A stretch of DNA of 62,879 bases, filler included, from Kipferlia bialata (Eukaryota): NCBI GenBank assembly GCA_003568945.1. It is 6 parts of 6 records of this genome, joined end to end, with 100 filler letters (N's around TTAATTAATTAA, not from the genome) between each part and the next. Parts side by side here need not be neighbours in the genome. Positions count along the whole stretch, not along the records: positions 1 to 12,787 come from BDIP01001032.1; 5 more parts are not named here. One strand, given 5' to 3'. The notes under the pieces were generated by a model. The model was not told the DNA's origin. It saw only the letters and a program-made list of their open reading frames with translations, and searched no databases. The position numbers were made by a program, and so were the translations under genes. How positions within the stretch are numbered: the stretch's first letter is position 1; every line of letters starts with the position of its first letter. Of the stretch, positions 10,163 to 39,699 are shown one piece after another.

Positions 10163-10174
10163 NCATAAACACAC

Positions 10175-11113
10175 CTGAGTTGATTGAGAGCACCGAGTCG
10201 TGTAGTGATGTCTGCCATAGTTGTGTATATGACACTGGAGTAGTCACTCTGGAGACTGGCCAACACGGCAAAGGAGGAGTAGACAACACAGAAGGCCTCC
10301 ATGAACAGAGCGACCTAGAGGTTAGAAGGAGGCAGGTAGACATTACACTCTCTGTATAGTAGATATGTCTTTACTCAAGAATATAATAATAGAAAGATCA
10401 GAGAGAAACAAACGCCACACTCACCATTGGACCATGCTGTGAGCCCTTGCCCAACAGACCCAGGGCACGGTCAGACATCTGGGGGTGAAGGAAACACTTT
10501 CTGTATATACACATACCAATACTCATATGCTAACTCAAGCGTACGTATATACACATATATCCATATATCCATCCCACCTTGACCGCGATGGCACTGTGCA
10601 CGTTGGGCAGAAAGTATATTATAATGCTACTCATATACACTTGTATACATATAATACATATATATATACATGTATACATATCCGTGTATACATATTACTC
10701 ACCTTGACCGTGATGGCACTGTGCACGTTGGTCATATAGCATTCATTCTATACAACTTACTCATGTATAAATATATACATACATATATTCATCATATATA
10801 TATATATATGTATATACATATATACATCCCCACCTTGACCGTTATGGCACTGTGCACGTTGGGCAGAGAGTATATACCCTCGGAGGGCTGGGGGATGGAG
10901 ACCTCAAACACAGTCTGGGGTGAGACGCATAACCACCACAGAACATACACACTCTTACATACTATAAGTGCATTGTACCTTCTCCTCCGTGTTGATAGAT
11001 AGTGATGCCGGTCTGAGTGTGCATATGCCCCTCTCTGCCAGTGTCCACAGGATGAGGGCATGCAGGAACTGGCCCTCAGAGTCAAGGAGAGAGGCATCAA
11101 GGCCCTAGAGTGA

Positions 11114-11151
<38 letters not shown>

Positions 11152-12787
11152 GCATGCAAGAACTGGCCCTCGGAGTCTAAGAGAGAGGCATCTAGGCCCT
11201 AATGTTAGTAGTATATACATATATATTTAGATAGAGAAATACAGACATCACTATATATGTCCCATCCAAGCCCTGGAGTTAGTAATCGCAAATCATAAAT
11301 ACACAGAACATTTCACAACAATTACACGGATCGAGGGACGGTGCGCGTTCAGGTCCAACAGTTAGTCTAGTATTCACACCTTCGTGAATATATTGATATA
11401 GAGAGAGAGACAAACTCCATTTCATGTACCTGCAGCACAATCTCGCAGAACCTGGCCAGCATGCCCACAAAGAACTCGGCCCTGGGGGTGAGGGAGATAT
11501 ATAGAGTATTATATACAACAGGAATGAATAAGAAAAGACACGGTAACATACCTATCGCTACTAGTTGTATCAGGTGACACCCCTGTGCTTGTGTGCAGCA
11601 TGGCGGCACAGGCCTTGGAGGGGTCGAGGAGACCATCGTTTATGACAAGGGTGGGGACCTGGAGTCAACTAATACATTATGTATAATATATCAATATAGA
11701 GGAATAATGCAGTATGAGAGAGAGGGGTATCGCAGCGAGAAGAGGAAGACATGCCATCGTTACTCACAAGGGTGGGGACCTGGAGTATGTTGAGGAAGAG
11801 AAAGAAGAGAAAGAAGGAAGAAAGAGACGAAGAAACTATCTGTATCCTACCTGGAATGCGTTGTGGACTGGGAGCTCACTGAACACAAACACAAACTTGG
11901 GCATGACTGTGATATGGGTGGAAGACATCAGGGAGTCAAACATCTGGGAGACTAGGGTGCCCTCTCTAGTGGTAAGTCAAAAAGGGATGTAGAGAAAGAG
12001 AAACATAGAGATATTGTAGTTTGTATACACATCCTCACCTGTCGAATGTCATGTCGACCACCACCCAGATGCCCTCGTCCTTGAGGTCATCCACACCTGG
12101 GGGGTGAGGGGGGTATACACATGTACATATATGTGTGTGTGTGGAAGGTAGTATATTGAGACACCTACGTGTTGCTTGACAAATGGGGTGAGAGGGGTAT
12201 TCATGTATACAAATACATATATGTGTAAATATATGTGGACACACACCCGTGCTGTCTGGTCTATGCCTCTCTCTATGCACCAAGGGGATGGGACACATAG
12301 TGCATATATAGATATATACAAATGTGCATATATACATATATTACTATATCGATACATACCTCCGTGCTGTCTAACGTATGCCTGCACCATACTAGGGTGT
12401 GATACATACTGATACATATGTATATATCTACGTATACACCACTATGTACCTCCGTGCTGCCTGATGTATGCCTGCACCATGTTGGGGTGTGACACATAGT
12501 GCACAGAGGCCTTGGAGTAGGCAGCGGCCTGAGTGTGAGTGAAGGAGATAAATATATATATATATATGTGTGTGTGTGTACATGCATATACACTGTGTAC
12601 CTTCTCCACTAGATGGTGCGCACTGACAGGGGTGTCAGACTGCACAACAAGGGCATGCTCCTTGGACCTGGGGGGTAAGGTTACACACCATACATACATA
12701 TATATATATGAGGAGAGAGATAGAGAGAGAGAGGGGGGGGGGGGGGGGGGGGGGGTCAGACTGCACCCCAAGGGCATGCTCCTTGGT
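10175..12787 (-). CDS. Multi-exon hypothetical protein; possibly the upstream part of the 2072-9262 gene
   Basis: Phase-compatible exons: SKEHALVVQSDTPVSAHHLVEK | AAAYSKASVHYVSHPNMVQAYIRQHGG | VDDLKDEGIWVVVDMTFD | ... | GLDASLLDSEGQFLHALILWTLAERG | TVFEVSIPQPSEGIYSLPNVHSAITVK. Same strand as the gene across the gap. Confidence 0.65.
10576..10866 (-). repeat. Donor-side exon-edge echo, 3 copies
   Basis: CCAACGTGCACAGTGCCAT(A/C)(A/G)CGGTCAAG|GTG at ~10830 (exon), ~10699 and ~10576. Confidence 0.9.
12163..12510 (-). repeat. Donor-side exon-edge echo, 4 copies with graded decay
   Basis: ..CAGGCATACATCAGGCAGCACGGAG|GT at ~12450 (exon), ~12358, ~12247 and ~12163. Confidence 0.8.
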
Positions 12788-17124: not shown

Positions 17125-17954
17125 ACAGCTGATATGCCCTCTCTACAGAAGGTTTCAGTGTTTCAAGAGCTGTTCACTGTTAAAGGTCATTGCAATTCTG
17201 TGTCTACTGTTACTCTGTATACTGTAGAGTCCCTGCCCAACCGCAGAAGTGCGGGCACCTCTTCGCACCTATTGCTGTATGGTACATCACCGGAAGAGAG
17301 CAACGCGTTCCCAGTAGCAAGTACAATGCCATTACAAGTTGTAATTTACAACCATTGCCAGTTGGGCGAATTTGTTTCTTGTCAACAGTGCAACAGTGCA
17401 GAGACGCGTGTATATTATCTAGAGTCAGTCCACCCCCGGTGATGACACTGTTTCTCTCCTCTTGGTGTAGTTACCTTCGTATATGGAGAATAGAACCATC
17501 CTTTGTAGCAAAAGACTCTTGCTTCAGTTATCACACTCACTCTGTTATCGGCTGTGCCGCTGTGATACAGGGGACTGAGTAACACTATCAGGTTGAATTG
17601 CTACTTCTCACATATAGAGTCTCTTTCGTCAACGTAAAGAAGTGTTTCGTTTGAGGGTCTCAAGTCGCCCATTATCTATCGCAGGAGGTATCTCAACAGT
17701 ATCAAAGACTTGCCCTTCGTAAGATCCCTTAATACTTCTCCTGTTTTAGACAGCATCACATGGGCGGCTATCCGTACTACCAGAGCAGCAGTGAGGACGA
17801 GGTATGTAGAGTGGTCAATGACCATGCTGCGAAAGTAACGAAACACATTGTACCTATTTGGTACTGGCAAACAGATTCATCGTCCATATGGTAAAGAGTA
17901 TTAGATATGTGAGACCAGTATATCTATTATGAATAGTAAGAGTTTCTCTCCTCA

Positions 17955-20871
17955 ATGCTTCTCAAGCTCCCCAACGCCGTGAGAGCAGACCACCCAAGGG
18001 TAGAGCGTATATACTATGCGTATTATGTGTACATGTGTGTGTGTCTCCGTGTACGTCTTACCTGTCTAGGACGAGACCCCTCTTCGAGAGCGCCAGATAC
18101 TGGCAGAGATGGATGAGGACGCTGTCTACCTCATGAATAGGTGGGACTCGCGTCTACAGTATCTAACACAATATGTGCCGTGTGCCATATGAAAGAGTAT
18201 TCCTGATGGATAGGGAAGAAGTCTTACCACTGGCTACCAGGGCCTTGCGCCAATTCCCAGAGTCCAGAGAGGTAAACATTAGACAAATCATTGATGAGTT
18301 ATGAATGTGAAGAATCATGATATACAGATGTAGGAGATATTCCGCTATAGTATGATACGGAGACACTGAATCAGGTGAGAGGAGAGGAGAGGAATCAAAG
18401 GACCTAATTACAAACTCTTCTCATTGCTGATCCAAAACCATTGTCATTTAGTCATGTACACTATTCTACATGTTTGTTAGGTATCCCTGTTATTATATAC
18501 CAACACACAATAGTGCAAATTGTACCAGAGTATAACAAACATATAGATTTGTCATATACTAATCCACCTCAGATATGTACCAGAGCGGCAGGACTTCTCA
18601 GCGATCTGTTGACAGGACGAAAGGGTAGGGGGCAAGTATCTGAAGTTGGGGAGATACGTTCTGCTCCAAACACTCTGATGTATAGGAGTATCCAACCTGG
18701 AGGACAAAAATTCGTAAACTACGTATCGTAGACTACGACTCGTAGTAACATCCCAATAATTCTTTCGCATTGCTAATATCTAGCAGACCTGCCTCAAGAG
18801 GGCCTTATCACTGCCTTTGAGCTCATCATTAGCAGCTATCAAGAGGTAGAAGCTAAGCTCTTAGAGCTTGCTACTAGCAACCTATATCCGCATAGCCAAG
18901 TATTCTCTCTGATACTGTGTGTCATATTATCATATATGTTGAATCATCTATATGGGCGCTCTCCTCTCTCATGATCTGGTCACATGGTTCTACACACTTA
19001 CCCAGTGGGGGTATAGCTCCGTAGCTATGATCATCAACACTTTTGGGGCAATTGCCGGGTACTGTAAGGGATACATGACATGCGTACTCCCAGGTAATGG
19101 CGATTTCTTGGCCATAAGTTCCTTGCATGTGTGTTAGTTCAATACTAGGCTGGGTTATGCAAACAGAGGTGATGTCAGACACGAATGTTTGTAGTGCAAT
19201 AATGCTCTTAAACAGGTCGCTGTTCCCCTGAGTGACTCACTTCAGATGTATTCTTTCTCAGGTCCCACTTGTTGGTGAATATCATACCTGCTGTGGTCAG
19301 CTTCGGCAGAGAGAGAGAGAGGGTCTCAGAGAGACAGGCATACCAGGTATGCCATACCTAGTTACTCGCTACAATAGTAATTTTCTATTAGGAAGAGAAC
19401 CTCACACATACTGCTCATCTCAGATATGTACGCTAGCGTCTGAGATCGTGCCAGTTCTTATCGAGAACCGTAAGTGTACCGTCTCTGCTATAGTGCATTC
19501 CACTGCTATATGCTGTCTCATTAGAAGTAGTATTGTCTCCGCTCTTCTAGGTTGTTGTCCTGGAAGACATTCTAGCACATTGCCATCTTCACCGACATCA
19601 ATCTGACGCGTAGAGAGAGGAGTGTGGTCTTGCCCTGCTGTGGTAAGAGTCTTCATTGACACCTTGAGAGAGTATTCTGACGAGCCACATTTGGTAGCGT
19701 GGGCACTTCGCATGTTGGATGACTACCAGTCGGGAGAAGGTATCTTGAACAGGGGCTCTAACTCTAACTTCAAGATTACTTCGTGCTGGAAGAAGAATGA
19801 CACATATGTCTAGCCTGTTTCTTATCATCAGGATTGGATATGTTCCATAGCCTTCTGGGGATTGACACTGTAGTGTCGGCACTTAACAACAGCGGAGACA
19901 CTGATACGGTGCACACTCCCCTAATCGCCCTACATGCTCTCGGTGTCCTGAGGCAGGTTGCCGAAAACTCAGGTACTTAGCACTATGCTACGTTAGCATA
20001 CTACGGCCTGTGGCCTCTTGAGTATGGGGAAATCACACAAAGATCCCTATTGCATCAATATAGAGTGCATGACACCAGACAGCGACATTGCAATCATGCA
20101 ATCTCTAGGTGTGTGTGACACCACCTTACACTACCTGTGCCCAAGTGAAACCTGGCCTTCTAGGGTTCAGTACGCTGTTGCAGAGGAGAGCTGTCGTCTC
20201 TTGATAGTTCTGGCGAGAGGTGTGAAGCGATAGAAGCAATTCATTGAGAGACGTTTTCAGTAAGAAATATGTCTTCTCCACTTGTTTCTTTACATTTGTG
20301 AAGACTACATACACATCATAATGGACAATGCACTCACTATTCAGACTTCACATGCAGAGAGGAACTGTGCACCCCTGAGTCAGTAAATGTCCTGAGTAGC
20401 CAGTTAGTCGAGGTATGTATATGAAATGTTGTGTCGCCCATGACAAACCACGGGAATACTTGTGAGTGTCTCAATGTGTTACGTATCTAAACACATCCCT
20501 CTACACTATTAGGATAACATAGTATAACTAATGATACATCGATGCTAGCTATGACGTCAGGAGAGAATCCAGATGTGTAATACAAGCGACAGCTACTATG
20601 CGATCCCGCACTACCTTCTCCCTGTGCAGACAATGGTCAAAGCCCTGCTTGTCAATGGTGAGTGTGAGAAGTTCAAACTTAGAAGTCACTTCACAGTTGA
20701 GTTGATTGCTAGTGCGATATAGTCATCCTTCTCACTATAGCCAGGTCCCGGTTCCGAGCAGATCCTGAGAATCCTAGTTGCGTAGCTGTTGTGAATTCCC
20801 TAGAAGATGTACTGGAGAGGTTAGAGATGCTGCTTGGATCCTACGGACAGGAGCAGGAGGATTCTGGATAA
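17955..20871 (+). CDS. Multi-exon alpha-helical repeat (ARM/HEAT-like) protein, paralog A; start uncertain
   Basis: Exons DLPQEGLITAFELIISSYQE, LLVNIIPAVVSFG, GVWSCPAVVRVFIDTLREYSDEPHLVAWALRMLDDY, FHSLLGIDTVVSAL, IAIMQSLGVCDTTLHYLCP; stop at 20869-20871. One expected exon near 20510 has stops in all frames. Confidence 0.6.
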
Positions 20872-21058
20872 ATATGTAGTTTCTGTCATAACATGTTGTG
20901 TTTGCAGGTTAAAGTCAATGCCATCATGTGACATCTTGAGTCTCCTTTGCCGTATGTAGTATTACATACACTACTGCTCAATGTATTCTATGTATCTTGC
21001 AGCACGGCACCCGTCTCTGTTCAGACAAGAAATCAACCTTTTAGTGATACTCCTCCTT

Positions 21059-24000
21059 TCAATACCGTCTGTGGTTCTTTGCTTCTGCCTTATGGCTTCT
21101 CAGCATTTCTGTTCTTCTCCTAAAATCCTCAAACGCCTTAACCAATGCGTGGTGACCCATGTTATGTGGTTCTCTTTGCATGTGGGATTCTGCTGGGGTC
21201 AGAGACATGTGTCAGCAGTAAATATTGATAACAAATGATATGAAGGAGTGTGAGCCTGACGATGACAGACGAACCATTCACCAGAATGGCGTCAACAATC
21301 GCTCCGACGTAAGGTAGCGAAACGTTGCCCGCCCATGATAACTTAGAGCCCCGATACCACTCACTGATAGACTTCTGTGATTCAGCTGTGTATATCACGA
21401 GATGCAGTGAAAACCAGTAATTCACTAATACAAGTTCCAACGGTATAGGACTGAAAACGTATGCCATACGTCGTATGGTACGTGTAGCATGTGCGTTGAT
21501 TACATATCAATATACCTGCTTCTCCTGCCAAGACATGTCGGCACATAGAATATCCTCCTAAATATGAGGTTACACAAGAGAGTCCAAAAAGAATCTGGAT
21601 TCCAGATACTCACTTCTAAGCTATGGAAAAGAGTAAAATGAGAATACTTTTCGTTGAACCATGTATGTGTATTCCAATTAGGGAGGCATACCCTAACAAT
21701 CAGGTCACTAAGGGCAGCGGCAGTATCCAGATTGCACAAGGCCTCTCTGCAACAATAGTCTGGGTGTGAGGAAACGTCTATCTGACTATCAAGTTGTGAG
21801 TTTTGAGGAATAAATCTGTTTGCGGTTGTCATTGAAATGCATCACTACTATATCATGTGAATGATGCAGAGTTGCCTCCACCTGTTGAGTAAATCTAATA
21901 AATCCAACTTTCTGTGTCTAAAGAGGTTAGTAAGTAACGAAAGAACGAATTCAGTTGACACCGTCAGTACCTTTTACCATTGAAATCAGCAGGCCGAAAC
22001 ACTGCATTGACAATTCATTTCTAATGCGATCTGGAAACGACTCTTCGGGACACAGATAGAAGATGGCTTCTTCACACACTCCTAGAGCGCCAAGGATAGC
22101 AAGGCTACTTTCTGGCAAGTGAGGTTTTGTATGATACAATACTCCCTATTCTTGTATCTGACTTACTCACCTCAATACGCAGTCGCACTAGTCATAGTTT
22201 CCAGCAGTATTCATCCATATACCATGTTCATAGTGTGAACTTCATGCACTAACAAGAGTATATATGGGTATTGTCGTTTGTGTAGAGAAGTTCTTGGTGA
22301 TTAGTTCTACTCTGCTTCCAATACTAGATGCCAAGATTACTTAACTGAAAAGGTAACTATGAGAGAACAGATTATATCAGACATACATACCGGAGGTGGA
22401 AGCAACTCTTGCGATGGCCTTTATAGCACCAAGCGCGATAAGAGGGGTGTACACAGTACTGTTGTGTAATACTGAGGCGACAGTATCGATACCCAGAAGG
22501 CTGTGGAATTGGTATATTCCTGGAGGTCAGTCAAGAGTAGTCTCAAACACTTCCGATGATACCATTCATAAATTCCTTATCAGAGTCAAAATTTTCTCTG
22601 TTTCTAGTGCGAAAGCTACTTACTGACAGCAATGGTAAACTTTACGCAATACGGAAGGTATCCCCATACATTGTATAGGGATACCTTCCTCAATTAGGAT
22701 GTATGGTATACATGAGGGTTTCTCTTTAGTTGTATCGGCTACATACGTACTCTTCAGTCTAGTTTGTCAATGACAAGAGGTATGTTACTAGCGTTTCTCA
22801 CCTGGTCCAGTGGAGTAATCGTCCAGTAACCCAAGTGTCCACTGTACAACGTGAGGCAGGTCAGCATATTCTCTCAGTGTGTCAATAACGACAGAGACGA
22901 TGTCAACTCTGGTCCAAATGGCGTCATCTGTGTGAGTACAATGTAAATACACTGACTTCATACATAATACTATACTATATAACCTGATATCAAACACCGA
23001 CTGTATTAGACACCGACCTACTCTTGCTATAAATAACCTCAGACATACACGAAAATGGATAAGAGAGACTCTTTTAGAGCCAACGAGAACTTACTTCTCG
23101 CAGGCTATATATATCAATGAAACACTGAACCCTTTTCCTCCCTTGAGGGATACATATTGTTACATTTTGAGAATACAACGTACGCTGGGCGTTAAGACCA
23201 TAAACAAGGCCGGCAGCACGCTTTCTGATCTGGTTGTTAGAAAATGAACTATTTTAACAAATGCTACAATAACTTTGTAATTGCATTGGAATACAATTGA
23301 AGGACAATTGAGTTCACCTTCTTTGCATCGTCTTCAGAGATGTCGGTTGCTTCATCGCCAAACTTCACCACGGCGGAAATGATGTTAACCAGGATCTGTG
23401 GACTCAGGTAGACCGTGTATGTGGTGAGTGAGAGGACAAATACAATATTTGAAATATTAGTACCTTAGGACGAGTTTCTCTTCAAGACAGCGTAGCAGTA
23501 AGCAACACAACAACATGGTGTAACCGTGGAATAATGCATGCATGTATATATATAAGAGATATTCGAAGTTTCAACCTGAAACAGGATCCCGCAAGAATAT
23601 GTGAAATTAGAAGTGAAGAGAATGAATTAGTTAAGTATTCTGGAGGACAGAAACATTTAGAAAGAATTAGTTCATTGTGTCAGCTGTGTATCAGGCTGTT
23701 ACCGGTAAGCTAGCAGCATGTTACCTGACGGATGCCGGAGTACATTGCTACAGTATCCACTCAGTGCCCCAAGGGTGTAGGATGTCATCTCAAGATCGTC
23801 GAATCCCCACTGATGAGTTAGTGGTGATTGTTGGCGTCAAGGCTTCCTCTAATCGCATATCTGTGTACGCAAATATATATTAAAGCAGCACCATACCTCC
23901 TGGTAGCACTGTACCACAAGCTCACACGCAATGCGAATACCTTCTCGGGGCAGATTGACTGATGGTTTCAGGGTGGATAAGACATGATGCATCAAGAGGT

Positions 24001-25092
24001 AGTATTGTACTTAGTTACATGAATGTATAATCATGCCATGCATAATGTATGTTCAACATGCCGATATGTTGTTAAAGCAGTGCCTAAGTCATAGAATTCG
24101 GAGAGGACAGTGTGATCTATGATGACTCATCATAGCAAGTCTCAACTCCAACTTAGAGTCTCTAAGTTACTATGTAATCGAATACACTATAGTGTATATT
24201 TGTACGCATCATATTCTCCAACATATATTTACGTAGCTTGATTAATAGAATTCCTACCACCTCGGTATCACTTTACCCAGGATCATACGCCATATAGGAC
24301 CTATAGGCTCTTTAGGCTATGCATTGTACACTGAATACAGTATACACTATAATAGCATGTGATACTAACCTGCGTGACTCCACTCTGTCACAGAGCACAC
24401 GAGGGATGCAGCCCTGGAACATATCTGCTGTGACATATACAGAGACTCTATGTCATAGAGAGCTTGACGGAGAAGACAACACATTGCTTGTTGAAGTCAA
24501 CTATGTCTCACAATCAGTATATCTACAATCCCTAATAGACTAGTCTACACATGTACCTCTCTAGACTGTGGGAATGTACGTAGAGCTCTATTTGCAAGCT
24601 GGAGCCTCTCCTCACCACCGTAGGGGATGTTGCGTGTATCAAGCTGTCCCAGCATCTCTCTCTCTCTCTCTCTTGGCCTGTGAGCATACCAGTATCGTCC
24701 TGAGTTAGAGTCCTGGTTCCTGGTAGAATAATAGTTCAGATATGTTGGCTGTATTCAAGGGGGTCCTCATCATACTATCAACGTTCCCACATCTTCACCT
24801 CTACCTCTCTATACATCAATAGAACATTCATTGAACATACCCAATCAAATTGATAATTATTTACGGATTGAATCAATGTGCACTGCATGTACAAGGTGTT
24901 GCATTCTTCTTTAGAACTTTCCAGAAGTGTACGATGTACATGCACTTGAGTTCCCCCTTCGTTGCAAATGAACAGTGCTAGTGAAAGGATCGATTGAGTG
25001 TGGAAAGAACATAGACTCAACATCGCTCTATAATAGAGTCTCTCACTTACCTCATCTTCACTGCTGCTCTTGTCGTAGAATGGATGGCCCAT
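21059..25092 (-). CDS. Multi-exon alpha-helical repeat (ARM/HEAT-like) protein, paralog B
   Basis: Exons NLPREGIRIACELVVQCYQE, ILVNIISAVVKFG, AIWTRVDIVSVVIDTLREYADLPHVVQWTLGLLDDY, FHSLLGIDTVASVL, LAILGALGVCEEAIFYLCP; ends AKNHRRY* at 21059. Confidence 0.65.
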
Positions 25093-38690: not shown

Positions 38691-39699
38691 CGTGAGGGCA
38701 TGCGTAGTGAGCACCCAGGAAGTCACAAGAGAACACGGTCTCGAGGGAGGGGACGTGGGTGAACCTGATGGTAAGGGAGAGAGGAATGATAGGGTGATAG
38801 AGCCGTGTACACATACACATACATTGTGTCCCCCCAGTGGAGCCATGGGGCCAGGTGGAAGTGGAAGTCGGTGCCGTTGACAGACAGCACATCACCCTTC
38901 TTGACCTGGGGTAAGCAGAAGCATACTTATATATAGAATCTACATACATAGAGAGATAGTGCACTCCTTCACTTGGAAGAGAGACAGAGACGTGTGTACC
39001 TGGTGCCTCTTGAATGTGTTGTCGTTGGAGATCTCCTTGAGGAAGTTGATGGCAGCCACTGTGCCGTGGATGGTGGCACCGGTGGCCTGGACAGTGAGGA
39101 TAGATGATACTACATATGTATATAGATGTGTATATATACGTGTATACATACTCATGATTGCGCTATACTCACCAGGGCCAGCTGCACAGCGGTGGAGGAG
39201 TGGTCGGGCTCGGTGTGGTTCAGAATGATGTGGGTGAGCTTCATGCCGGTGCCACCTGACAGTGAGACAGCAGAGACAAAGAGTGACATACTGTATACAC
39301 CCACCCATGACGTCCTCTATCCTGCCCAGGAGCTGGTCTGTGTGCATGGTCTTGCCCTTCACAGTCTCAATCAGCACAGCCTGGGGTGAGGACTATACAC
39401 ATAGAGACAGAGAGACAGAGACAGAGGGAGACACAGTCATGATATGCACACCCACCTCATCCCCGCACTTGACGATGTAGCTGTTGTAGGTGGTGCCAAA
39501 CTCAGTGTACATGACAATGTCAAAGACACGCAGGTTGGGGTCACTGTGGGGTGAGTGGGGGGGGGGGGGTAACAATTGGCGATACTGACAAATTATCAAT
39601 ACCATCACCGTCAGTCCATACACTCCCACCGTACCTAGCTCCGACCCATGACACTCTGTCGGACAGGGCAATGCTCTCGAGGGGTACGCTGTCGGCCAT
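38691..39699 (-). CDS. Flavodiiron protein (A-type flavoprotein, FprA-like O2/NO reductase), metallo-beta-lactamase domain; 3' truncated
   Basis: Spliced: SWVGA..DPNLRVFDIVMYTEFGTTYNSYIV, LIETVK, IILNHTEPDHS (H-x-E-x-D-H), APWLHWGDTMWF, VFSCDFLGAHY. Confidence 0.92.

What the first reader, a model, noticed from the sequence alone, without database searches (positions are those of the whole stretch)
11057..11202. Intronic echo encodes the same 16 aa with only silent differences
Seen (minus strand): exon start GGC CTT GAT GCC TCT CTC CTT GAC TCT GAG GGC CAG TTC CTG CAT GCC versus echo GGC CTA GAT GCC TCT CTC TTA GAC TCC GAG GGC CAG TTC TTG CAT GCC. There are five nucleotide differences and both read GLDASLLDSEGQFLHA; the echo then runs into a CT microsatellite with no donor. 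Neutral decay should give mostly replacement changes. Inference: the echo diverged while it was coding, for example captured from a diverged allele or lineage by one-sided homologous recombination (anchored in the exon, resolved non-homologously in the intron), or it is still spliced in.
Basis: partly seen in the sequence, partly recalled or inferred. Interest (0 to 1): 0.85.

Follow-up and report, generated by a model that had tools for sequence, protein, structure and literature searches.

The report
Dead exon-start copy inside an intron
In an intron-rich flagellate the first 49 bases of an exon are repeated in the intron just before it, and the one transcript seen splices over the copy; its five silent differences are likely the lucky tail of ordinary decay (the working exon keeps changing at silent sites while such copies drift freely), though a contribution from a different allele is not excluded.

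Summary
Observation confirmed: 11198-11151 and the exon start 11104-11057 (minus strand) differ at 5 of 48 bases and encode the same 16 residues. The copy is intronic: the one RNA-type contig carries the exon's letters and joins the upstream exon straight to it. It is one of 37 splice-site-anchored copies on 25 of 294 exon edges, the 'mirage' type known from amphioxus; a source names the protein as Kipferlia bialata. Observed without the focal pair: 0.33-0.40 (P 0.03-0.29). In multi-copy arrays, changes private to one echo are neutral (10 silent, 28 replacement); changes separating the exon from its echoes are mostly silent (9, 3). The focal pair remains a tail event (P about 0.01 alone, 0.02-0.04 in the window). 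Unexplained: intron parts of the units differ 3 or more times as much as exon-derived parts, uncorrelated with them; allelic exchange in a diploid would explain that. Mostly ordinary, with one testable residue.

The parts
11150..11198 (-). Focal echo: 49-nt intronic copy of the exon start; 5 differences, all silent in the exon's frame
11199..11218 (-). Echo's copied acceptor (branch-like CTAAC and AG); weak by a matrix trained on this window (0.2 bits vs 10.1 for the working acceptor)
11116..11148 (-). (TC)16 tract between echo and working acceptor; no donor
10979..11104 (-). Working exon, 126 nt, phase 0/0; its letters are in the RNA-type contig with 0 other letters
11105..11429 (-). Host intron (325 nt, GT..AG) removed as one piece in the RNA-type contig
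   Evidence: loose end behind 11106 is the end of exon 11481-11430
11430..11481 (-). Upstream exon, ends in phase 0
11263..11272 (-). Possible older second echo, 8 of 10 bases after a branch-like motif and AG; below the scan threshold, not counted
10578..10742 (-). Two donor-side echoes of exon 10914-10834; skipped by the RNA-type contig
11754..11779 (-). Acceptor-side echo of exon 11658-11552, same gene
12245..12411 (-). Two donor-side echoes of exon 12528-12450; one has a stop codon
27645..28094 (-). Array of five acceptor-side echoes of exon 27581-27492 (four keep the AG)
32281..32916 (+). Exon 32545-32634 with three acceptor-side and three donor-side echoes

Best explanation
The echo is an intronic head-to-tail copy of the acceptor plus the first 49 exon bases that the transcript seen splices over, and its all-silent differences are likely a tail outcome of a dead copy drifting while the working exon changes almost only at silent sites. 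Shown: the copy, its skipping in one RNA-type contig, 36 more copies in the window, intron flanks more alike than unrelated ones (tandem geometry), neutral-looking private changes in multi-copy arrays. Inferred: birth by local tandem duplication (slippage, template switch or unequal exchange) of a unit about 100 nt long across the splice site; tolerance because only the last acceptor or first donor gives a complete exon; further multiplication by unequal exchange; fast turnover of the TA/CT-rich intron part. For the focal pair itself the direction of the five changes cannot be polarised.
For: RNA-type contig has exon letters, joint from 11430 to 11104. Echo acceptor use shifts the frame. 37 echoes on 25 of 294 edges, each beside its own exon edge; 8 of the 25 edges carry several. 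Private echo changes 10 silent / 28 replacement, i.e. 26% silent as neutral (P 0.52-0.65), including a stop; exon-vs-all-echoes changes 9 / 3 (Fisher P 0.005); replacement changes run GC to AT 32 vs 12 (P 0.004) and are no more conservative than random (BLOSUM P 0.40, 30 single-base changes). Edge-averaged dN/dS 0.33-0.40 on 24 edges without the focal one lies inside the simulated 95% range in 17 of 18 model-by-trimming cells for neutral-echo models plus both-coding, with P 0.028-0.29 for the five neutral-echo models. Intron flanks beat unrelated flanks in 16 of 35 exon-echo pairs at P<0.05.
Against: The observed dN/dS is below every neutral-echo median (0.46-0.63) and above the both-coding median (0.25), so neither model is rejected; with strict free-end trimming 0.24-0.29 and P down to 0.005 against 0.575. 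All-silent echoes 8 of 33 vs 4.2-5.3 expected (P 0.03-0.12) and the focal pair 0.018-0.037 window-wide. 'Shared' silent changes are also what allele capture followed by multiplication predicts. Intron parts differ 0.29-0.35 where alignable, exon parts 0.10-0.12, with no correlation (Spearman 0.05 and 0.02), e.g. 0 of 37 vs 0.26 at 37215-37251; a uniform clock does not give that. Exon models outside gene A1 are mine and are not RNA-checked.
Confidence: 0.6

Rival explanations
1. Allelic exchange: echo and working exon come from different alleles of a polymorphic diploid, either at birth (one-sided invasion or unequal exchange with the homologue) or later (exon-anchored allelic conversion refreshing the working exon while the echo stays hemizygous). 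Differences at birth would be silent, intron flanks already far apart, and neutral decay would be added later.
For: Sharp drop in identity at the splice site: exon part about 0.89, intron nt 6-10 0.68 (acceptor side) and 0.39 (donor side) ungapped, unrelated 0.40 and 0.28. Near-identical exon parts with unalignable flanks (8740: 1/41; 30727: 1/37; 31122: 1/30; 27192: 2/38). Pooled dN/dS below the neutral medians. Two-base Leu-to-Leu changes at the focal pair and at 27192. The K. bialata genome paper reports two k-mer peaks suggesting diploidy (PMC5874029 section 11).
Against: Fitted extra silent divergence is only 0.02-0.075 per site with P 0.04-0.33, far below the roughly 0.3 the focal pair alone would need. 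Several near-identical pairs have no silent difference at all despite far-diverged flanks, so introns must outrun silent sites in this model too. Echo-echo pairs show the same exon/intron contrast (0.116 vs 0.345). Echo flanks are rich in short runs (0.25 of bases vs 0.025 in echoes), which offers slippage as a plainer cause. No allele was seen; the DNA run laid nothing (may be a filter).
Confidence: 0.27
2. Former working duplicate: the whole exon was once duplicated and both copies were used (alternatively), then one was truncated.
For: All-silent pattern is likelier if both copies coded (0.16-0.18 vs about 0.01). One echo elsewhere (35976-36002) has AG, GT and an open frame.
Against: Echoes are 15-52 nt, median 30, always the edge next to their intron; no remnant of the other 77 nt of the focal exon lies in the 94-nt spacer; private changes are neutral.
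Confidence: 0.05
3. Assembly artefact: two haplotypes laid in tandem.
For: Diploidy is reported for the species; the focal junction runs through a 33-nt microsatellite; three echoes abut N gaps or a contig end (9262, 12786, 30484); no read-level bridge was obtained (laid no DNA contig).
Against: A haplotype would continue into the rest of the exon, not stop after 49 nt; arrays hold up to six distinct copies; echoes carry stops and indels; most echo-exon pairs have no long microsatellite between them. Run X1 holds 0.91 of the sampled words of 10164-12740, but it may be the very sample assembled, so this is not independent.
Confidence: 0.05
4. The echo is still spliced into a protein-coding isoform.
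For: It keeps AG and a branch-like motif; contigs drop rare forms, so minor use is not excluded.
Against: No donor; use adds 94 nt and leads to a stop after 33 codons; acceptor score 0.2; the RNA-type contig skips it.
Confidence: 0.03

Closest known systems
'Mirages' of amphioxus (minisatellite-like tandem duplications of exon-intron boundaries in Adh3, globins BflGb6/BflGb9, TnC, PGBD5; PMC3087553 passages, PMC3902484 one passage; the original Adh3 paper PMC117041 was not held)
   Same: Tandem units spanning a 5' or 3' exon boundary, many keeping AG/GT, arrays of several units, units 81-100% alike, normal splicing undisturbed.
   Different: Here a free-living fornicate protist with short introns; most edges have one copy (17 of 25); exon parts 15-52 nt; intron parts are far more diverged than exon parts. 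Length instability and haplotype differences, shown in amphioxus, could not be tested here.
Human F7 intron 7 37-bp VNTR (PMC1557585, abstract only)
   Same: First unit spans the exon-intron boundary; copied splice sites downstream stay silent.
   Different: F7 is a homogeneous donor-side VNTR; the focal case is a single diverged acceptor-side copy, where the last AG must be chosen.
Intron gain by tandem duplication of an AG/GY proto-splice site (PMC2891723, passages)
   Same: Short local tandem duplication touching splice signals, mRNA unchanged.
   Different: No new intron position is made here; an existing intron only gets longer.
One-sided invasion / homologue-templated repair (recalled; a search, listed nothing that links it to intronic exon copies)
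   Different: Template (sister or homologue) cannot be told from this assembly; no allele was found.

Membership tests
Mirage (exon-intron boundary tandem repeat) | Direct, head-to-tail copy that spans an exon-intron boundary | tested here: met
   AG plus 49 exon bases repeated 94 nt upstream; focal intron flank only weakly alike (P 0.026), 16 of 35 pairs at P<0.05
Mirage (exon-intron boundary tandem repeat) | Copies lie in the intron next to the copied edge; both 5' and 3' edges affected | tested here: met
   19 acceptor-side and 18 donor-side anchored echoes; 0 in 7072 foreign-intron controls
Mirage (exon-intron boundary tandem repeat) | Normal splicing not disturbed | tested here: met
   One RNA-type contig skips the focal echo and two donor-side echoes; rare forms not visible in contigs; the other 34 echoes not tested
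Mirage (exon-intron boundary tandem repeat) | Minisatellite-like multi-unit arrays | tested here: met
   8 of 25 edges carry 2-4 anchored echoes; the focal edge has one, perhaps a second worn one
Mirage (exon-intron boundary tandem repeat) | Copy-number instability between haplotypes or cells | not testable with these tools
   No raw reads or second isolate; DNA run laid nothing
Alternative (cassette or mutually exclusive) exon | Own acceptor and donor, frame-compatible, seen in transcripts | tested here: not met
   No donor, 94-nt frameshift, absent from the contig
Intron gain by proto-splice-site duplication | New intron position bounded by a duplicated AG/GY | tested here: not met
   Echo is followed by a TC tract, not GT; intron removed whole
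Allele-captured duplicate (homologue-templated) | A working allele with the echo's bases and flank exists | tested here: inconclusive
   RNA-type contig shows no other letters; DNA run laid 0 contigs; no relative in protein searches
Allele-captured duplicate (homologue-templated) | Silent divergence above the two-lineage neutral expectation | tested here: inconclusive
   P 0.03-0.29, 0.04-0.33, 0.03-0.12

The most novel reading that the evidence does not exclude
Mirages in this diploid protist are made or refreshed by exchange with the other homologue, so each echo is a fossil of a former allele: exon-anchored, resolved in an intron that alleles no longer share. Arrays would then be archives of population diversity readable from one genome, and would show recombination between homologues in a free-living fornicate.
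Probability: 0.25. Interest if true: 0.65.

Novelty: new member of a known kind. Interest (0 to 1): 0.3.

Why it matters
As it stands: it extends mirages from amphioxus to a fornicate protist at high density (25 of 294 edges), shows one way its introns grow, and is a caution that exon-versus-pseudo-exon dN/dS must be tested against about 0.5, not 1. Echo splice sites score as high as working ones in about half the cases, which bears on how this spliceosome picks sites and can mislead gene models. If the allelic reading holds, it would give sequence evidence for homologue exchange and very high allelic divergence in a lineage whose sexuality is little known (that last point is recalled, not from a call). 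No description of such repeats in Kipferlia turned up in searches for Kipferlia+intron+duplication (19 papers, 17 listed), Kipferlia+exon+tandem (4) or mirages+exon+intron (18), judged from listings; the genome paper has no 'tandem' or 'microsatellite' in its main text; subscription papers and supplements were not seen.

Tried and rejected
No whole genome is held, so pooling is limited to this window. Read laying over the echo itself was not obtained; what was laid covers the working exon and the next one only, and the DNA-type run laid 0 contigs there, which the tool says can be false; so physical linkage of echo and exon and the existence of an allele stay open. No run on record as RNA was listed; X2 is a guessed RNA run, but its contig is spliced at three joints. 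The search for related loci did not run on the 42-aa exon. Protein searches found only the protein itself; Pfam gave nothing for P0001; the Atlas gave AAA-family look-alikes at 0.91-0.92 with 154-166 shared features, a lead only. First pooled test (31 unanchored echoes of score 14 or more, gene J dropped for a faulty model) gave 0.39-0.53, but trims differences beside the splice site, so it was replaced by the anchored set. 'Best echo per edge' (0.26-0.31, P 0.000-0.032) was rejected as biased low, because picking the closest echo removes echo-side changes; 'unique changes over all echoes' (0.31-0.44) is biased high; edge averages are reported. Codon-usage asymmetry was not informative (echo codon rarer in 18 of 32). 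Two of 149 exon models were faulty (26634 has a stop and gave no anchored echo; the frame of the 13789 edge was set by hand). Earlier-findings look-ups by place and relatives were empty. PMC9860276 does not mention Kipferlia; PMC2812944 seen as outline only.

Full report
Setting. The window is a string of contigs joined by N-linker-N spacers from an intron-rich eukaryote: GT..AG introns mostly 55-250 nt, GC3 0.68, intron GC 0.43. The focal exon matches, 100% over 42 residues, a protein that its source names 'hypothetical protein KIPB_004713, partial [Kipferlia bialata]'. It has no Pfam family and no relative was found for residues 1-520; its function is open and does not bear on the question.

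Observation. On the minus strand the exon 11104-10979 starts after an AG; 94 nt upstream, 11198-11150 repeats its first 49 bases, also after an AG. Five of the first 48 bases differ, three at third and two at first codon positions (both Leu), and the peptide is the same. The copy runs into (TC)16 and the working acceptor, with no GT.

Is it spliced in? The one contig laid from the RNA-type run (9517 nt, depth 63.9) covers 10979-11106 with 0 other letters; its loose end is the end of exon 11481-11430, so the 325-nt intron with the echo is removed whole; it also joins 10834 to the exon at 10478, skipping two donor-side echoes. Contigs hide rare forms. Use of the echo acceptor would add 94 nt and reach a stop after 33 codons; it scores 0.2 bits against 10.1.

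How common? I built 149 exon models by hand and with a small parser trained on the window; those of the focal gene agree with P0001, the others are unchecked by RNA. A scan anchored at AG or GT found 37 echoes on 25 of 294 edges and none in 7072 foreign-intron controls. They are 15-52 nt, always copy the edge facing their intron, and 8 edges have several. Intron flanks are more alike than unrelated flanks, so the units are tandem duplications across the splice site. Passages of PMC3087553 and PMC3902484 describe exactly this in amphioxus as 'mirages' that do not disturb splicing; the F7 intron-7 VNTR is a human case (abstract).

The right null. Differences between echo and exon build up on two branches. 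The echo takes all changes; the exon takes mainly silent ones. Simulated through the same detection, a frozen exon gives dN/dS about 1.0, a living exon 0.46-0.63 depending on transition and AT bias, and two coding copies 0.25. Observed, averaging within edges and leaving out the focal pair: 0.40, 0.37, 0.33 for three trimmings; P 0.028-0.29 against the neutral-echo models and 0.045-0.155 from the other side against both-coding. Other trimmings of the unanchored set range 0.24-0.58. So 1 is rejected, and the data sit between the two serious models.

Polarising. In the 8 multi-echo edges, changes private to one echo (or a minority) are 10 silent and 28 replacement, the neutral ratio, and include a stop; changes by which the exon differs from its echoes jointly are 9 and 3 (Fisher P 0.005). 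Replacement changes run GC to AT 32 to 12 and are not conservative. Echoes therefore decay as dead sequence, and the silent surplus sits on the branch leading to the working exon or on the echoes' common stem. A model with an added silent term improves the fit only weakly (0.02-0.075 per site, P 0.04-0.33).

The focal pair. Same protein given five differences: 0.007-0.013 under the two-branch null, 0.16-0.18 if both coded. Among the 10 echoes with five or more differences, at least one all-silent has P 0.018-0.037; over the 33 echoes with any difference 8 are all-silent against 4.2-5.3 expected. It is a tail case chosen for being one, with a mild surplus left over.

What stays unexplained. Exon-derived parts differ by 0.10 (exon-echo) and 0.12 (echo-echo) where intron parts of the same units differ by 0.29 and 0.35, unrelated flanks by 0.45; the two do not correlate. 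Identity falls at the splice site itself. Candidates: slippage in run-rich flanks (0.25 of bases in short runs against 0.025 in echoes), conversion confined to the exon part, loss of perfect young units in short-read assembly, or exchange between alleles. The species' genome paper suggests a diploid nucleus from two k-mer peaks (section 11), so the allelic route is available in principle; no allele was seen here.

Earlier scan notes (same turn) report the same kind of copies and the same reading of silent bias in sea-urchin genes; they are unchecked AI notes and are not counted as support.

Verdict. Real feature; dead intronic mirage; silent-only pattern most likely a tail of ordinary two-branch divergence (0.6), allelic input a live rival (0.27). 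New member of a known kind; interest 0.3.

Noticed in passing
window 9262-9233 and 9151-9122 (minus): Two identical 30-nt copies with donors; the first abuts the 901-N gap. The deposited protein P0001 uses the second copy as an exon, while the RNA-type contig is 9517 nt, far longer than the 1855-aa model needs, so an echo may have been annotated as the exon and exons may hide in the gap.
   Followed up: no
window 35976-36002 (plus): 27-nt echo of the end of exon 35837-35906 with its own AG and GT, in frame and stop-free; my parser picked it as an exon. Candidate mirage turned cassette exon.
   Followed up: partly
all anchored echoes: Echo splice sites are not consistently weaker than working ones by matrix score (weaker in 11 of 19 acceptors, 8 of 17 donors); every use would shift the frame or meet a stop. 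Suggests exon definition or decay of mis-spliced RNA in a short-intron protist.
   Followed up: partly
genes at 10164-12787, 25757-29520, 30210-37800 vs the rest: Echo density is uneven: 18 of 106 edges in these three models, 7 of 192 in the other seven.
   Followed up: partly
window 37215-37251, 27192-27155, 8740-8700, 30691-30727, 31093-31122: Near-perfect exon parts (0-2 differences in 30-41 nt) beside intron parts that are 26% different or unalignable.
   Followed up: partly
window 29277-29251 (minus): Echo lacking 6 nt between two short direct repeats at the exon start; missed by the ungapped anchored scan.
   Followed up: no
window 17775-20900 (plus) and 21500-25077 (minus): Two diverged paralogous intron-rich genes facing each other, 72-84% alike in two exon stretches.
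   Followed up: no
window 38715-39543 (minus): Six exons that read like a flavodiiron (A-type flavoprotein) gene; label recalled from motifs, Pfam on two single exons found nothing.
   Followed up: no
window 32545-32634 (plus): The exon with six echoes has a weak XPG-domain hit (PF12813, E 0.01, below cut-off).
   Followed up: no
window 5990-5904 (minus): Intron with a GC donor, needed for frame continuity and matching P0001.
   Followed up: no
contig ends at 1, 12787, 25656, 38622, 51361, 59609: Most contigs end in or near poly-C/poly-G tracts of 20-50 nt, which probably break the assembly; the echo at 12786-12750 lies there and was treated as doubtful.
   Followed up: no
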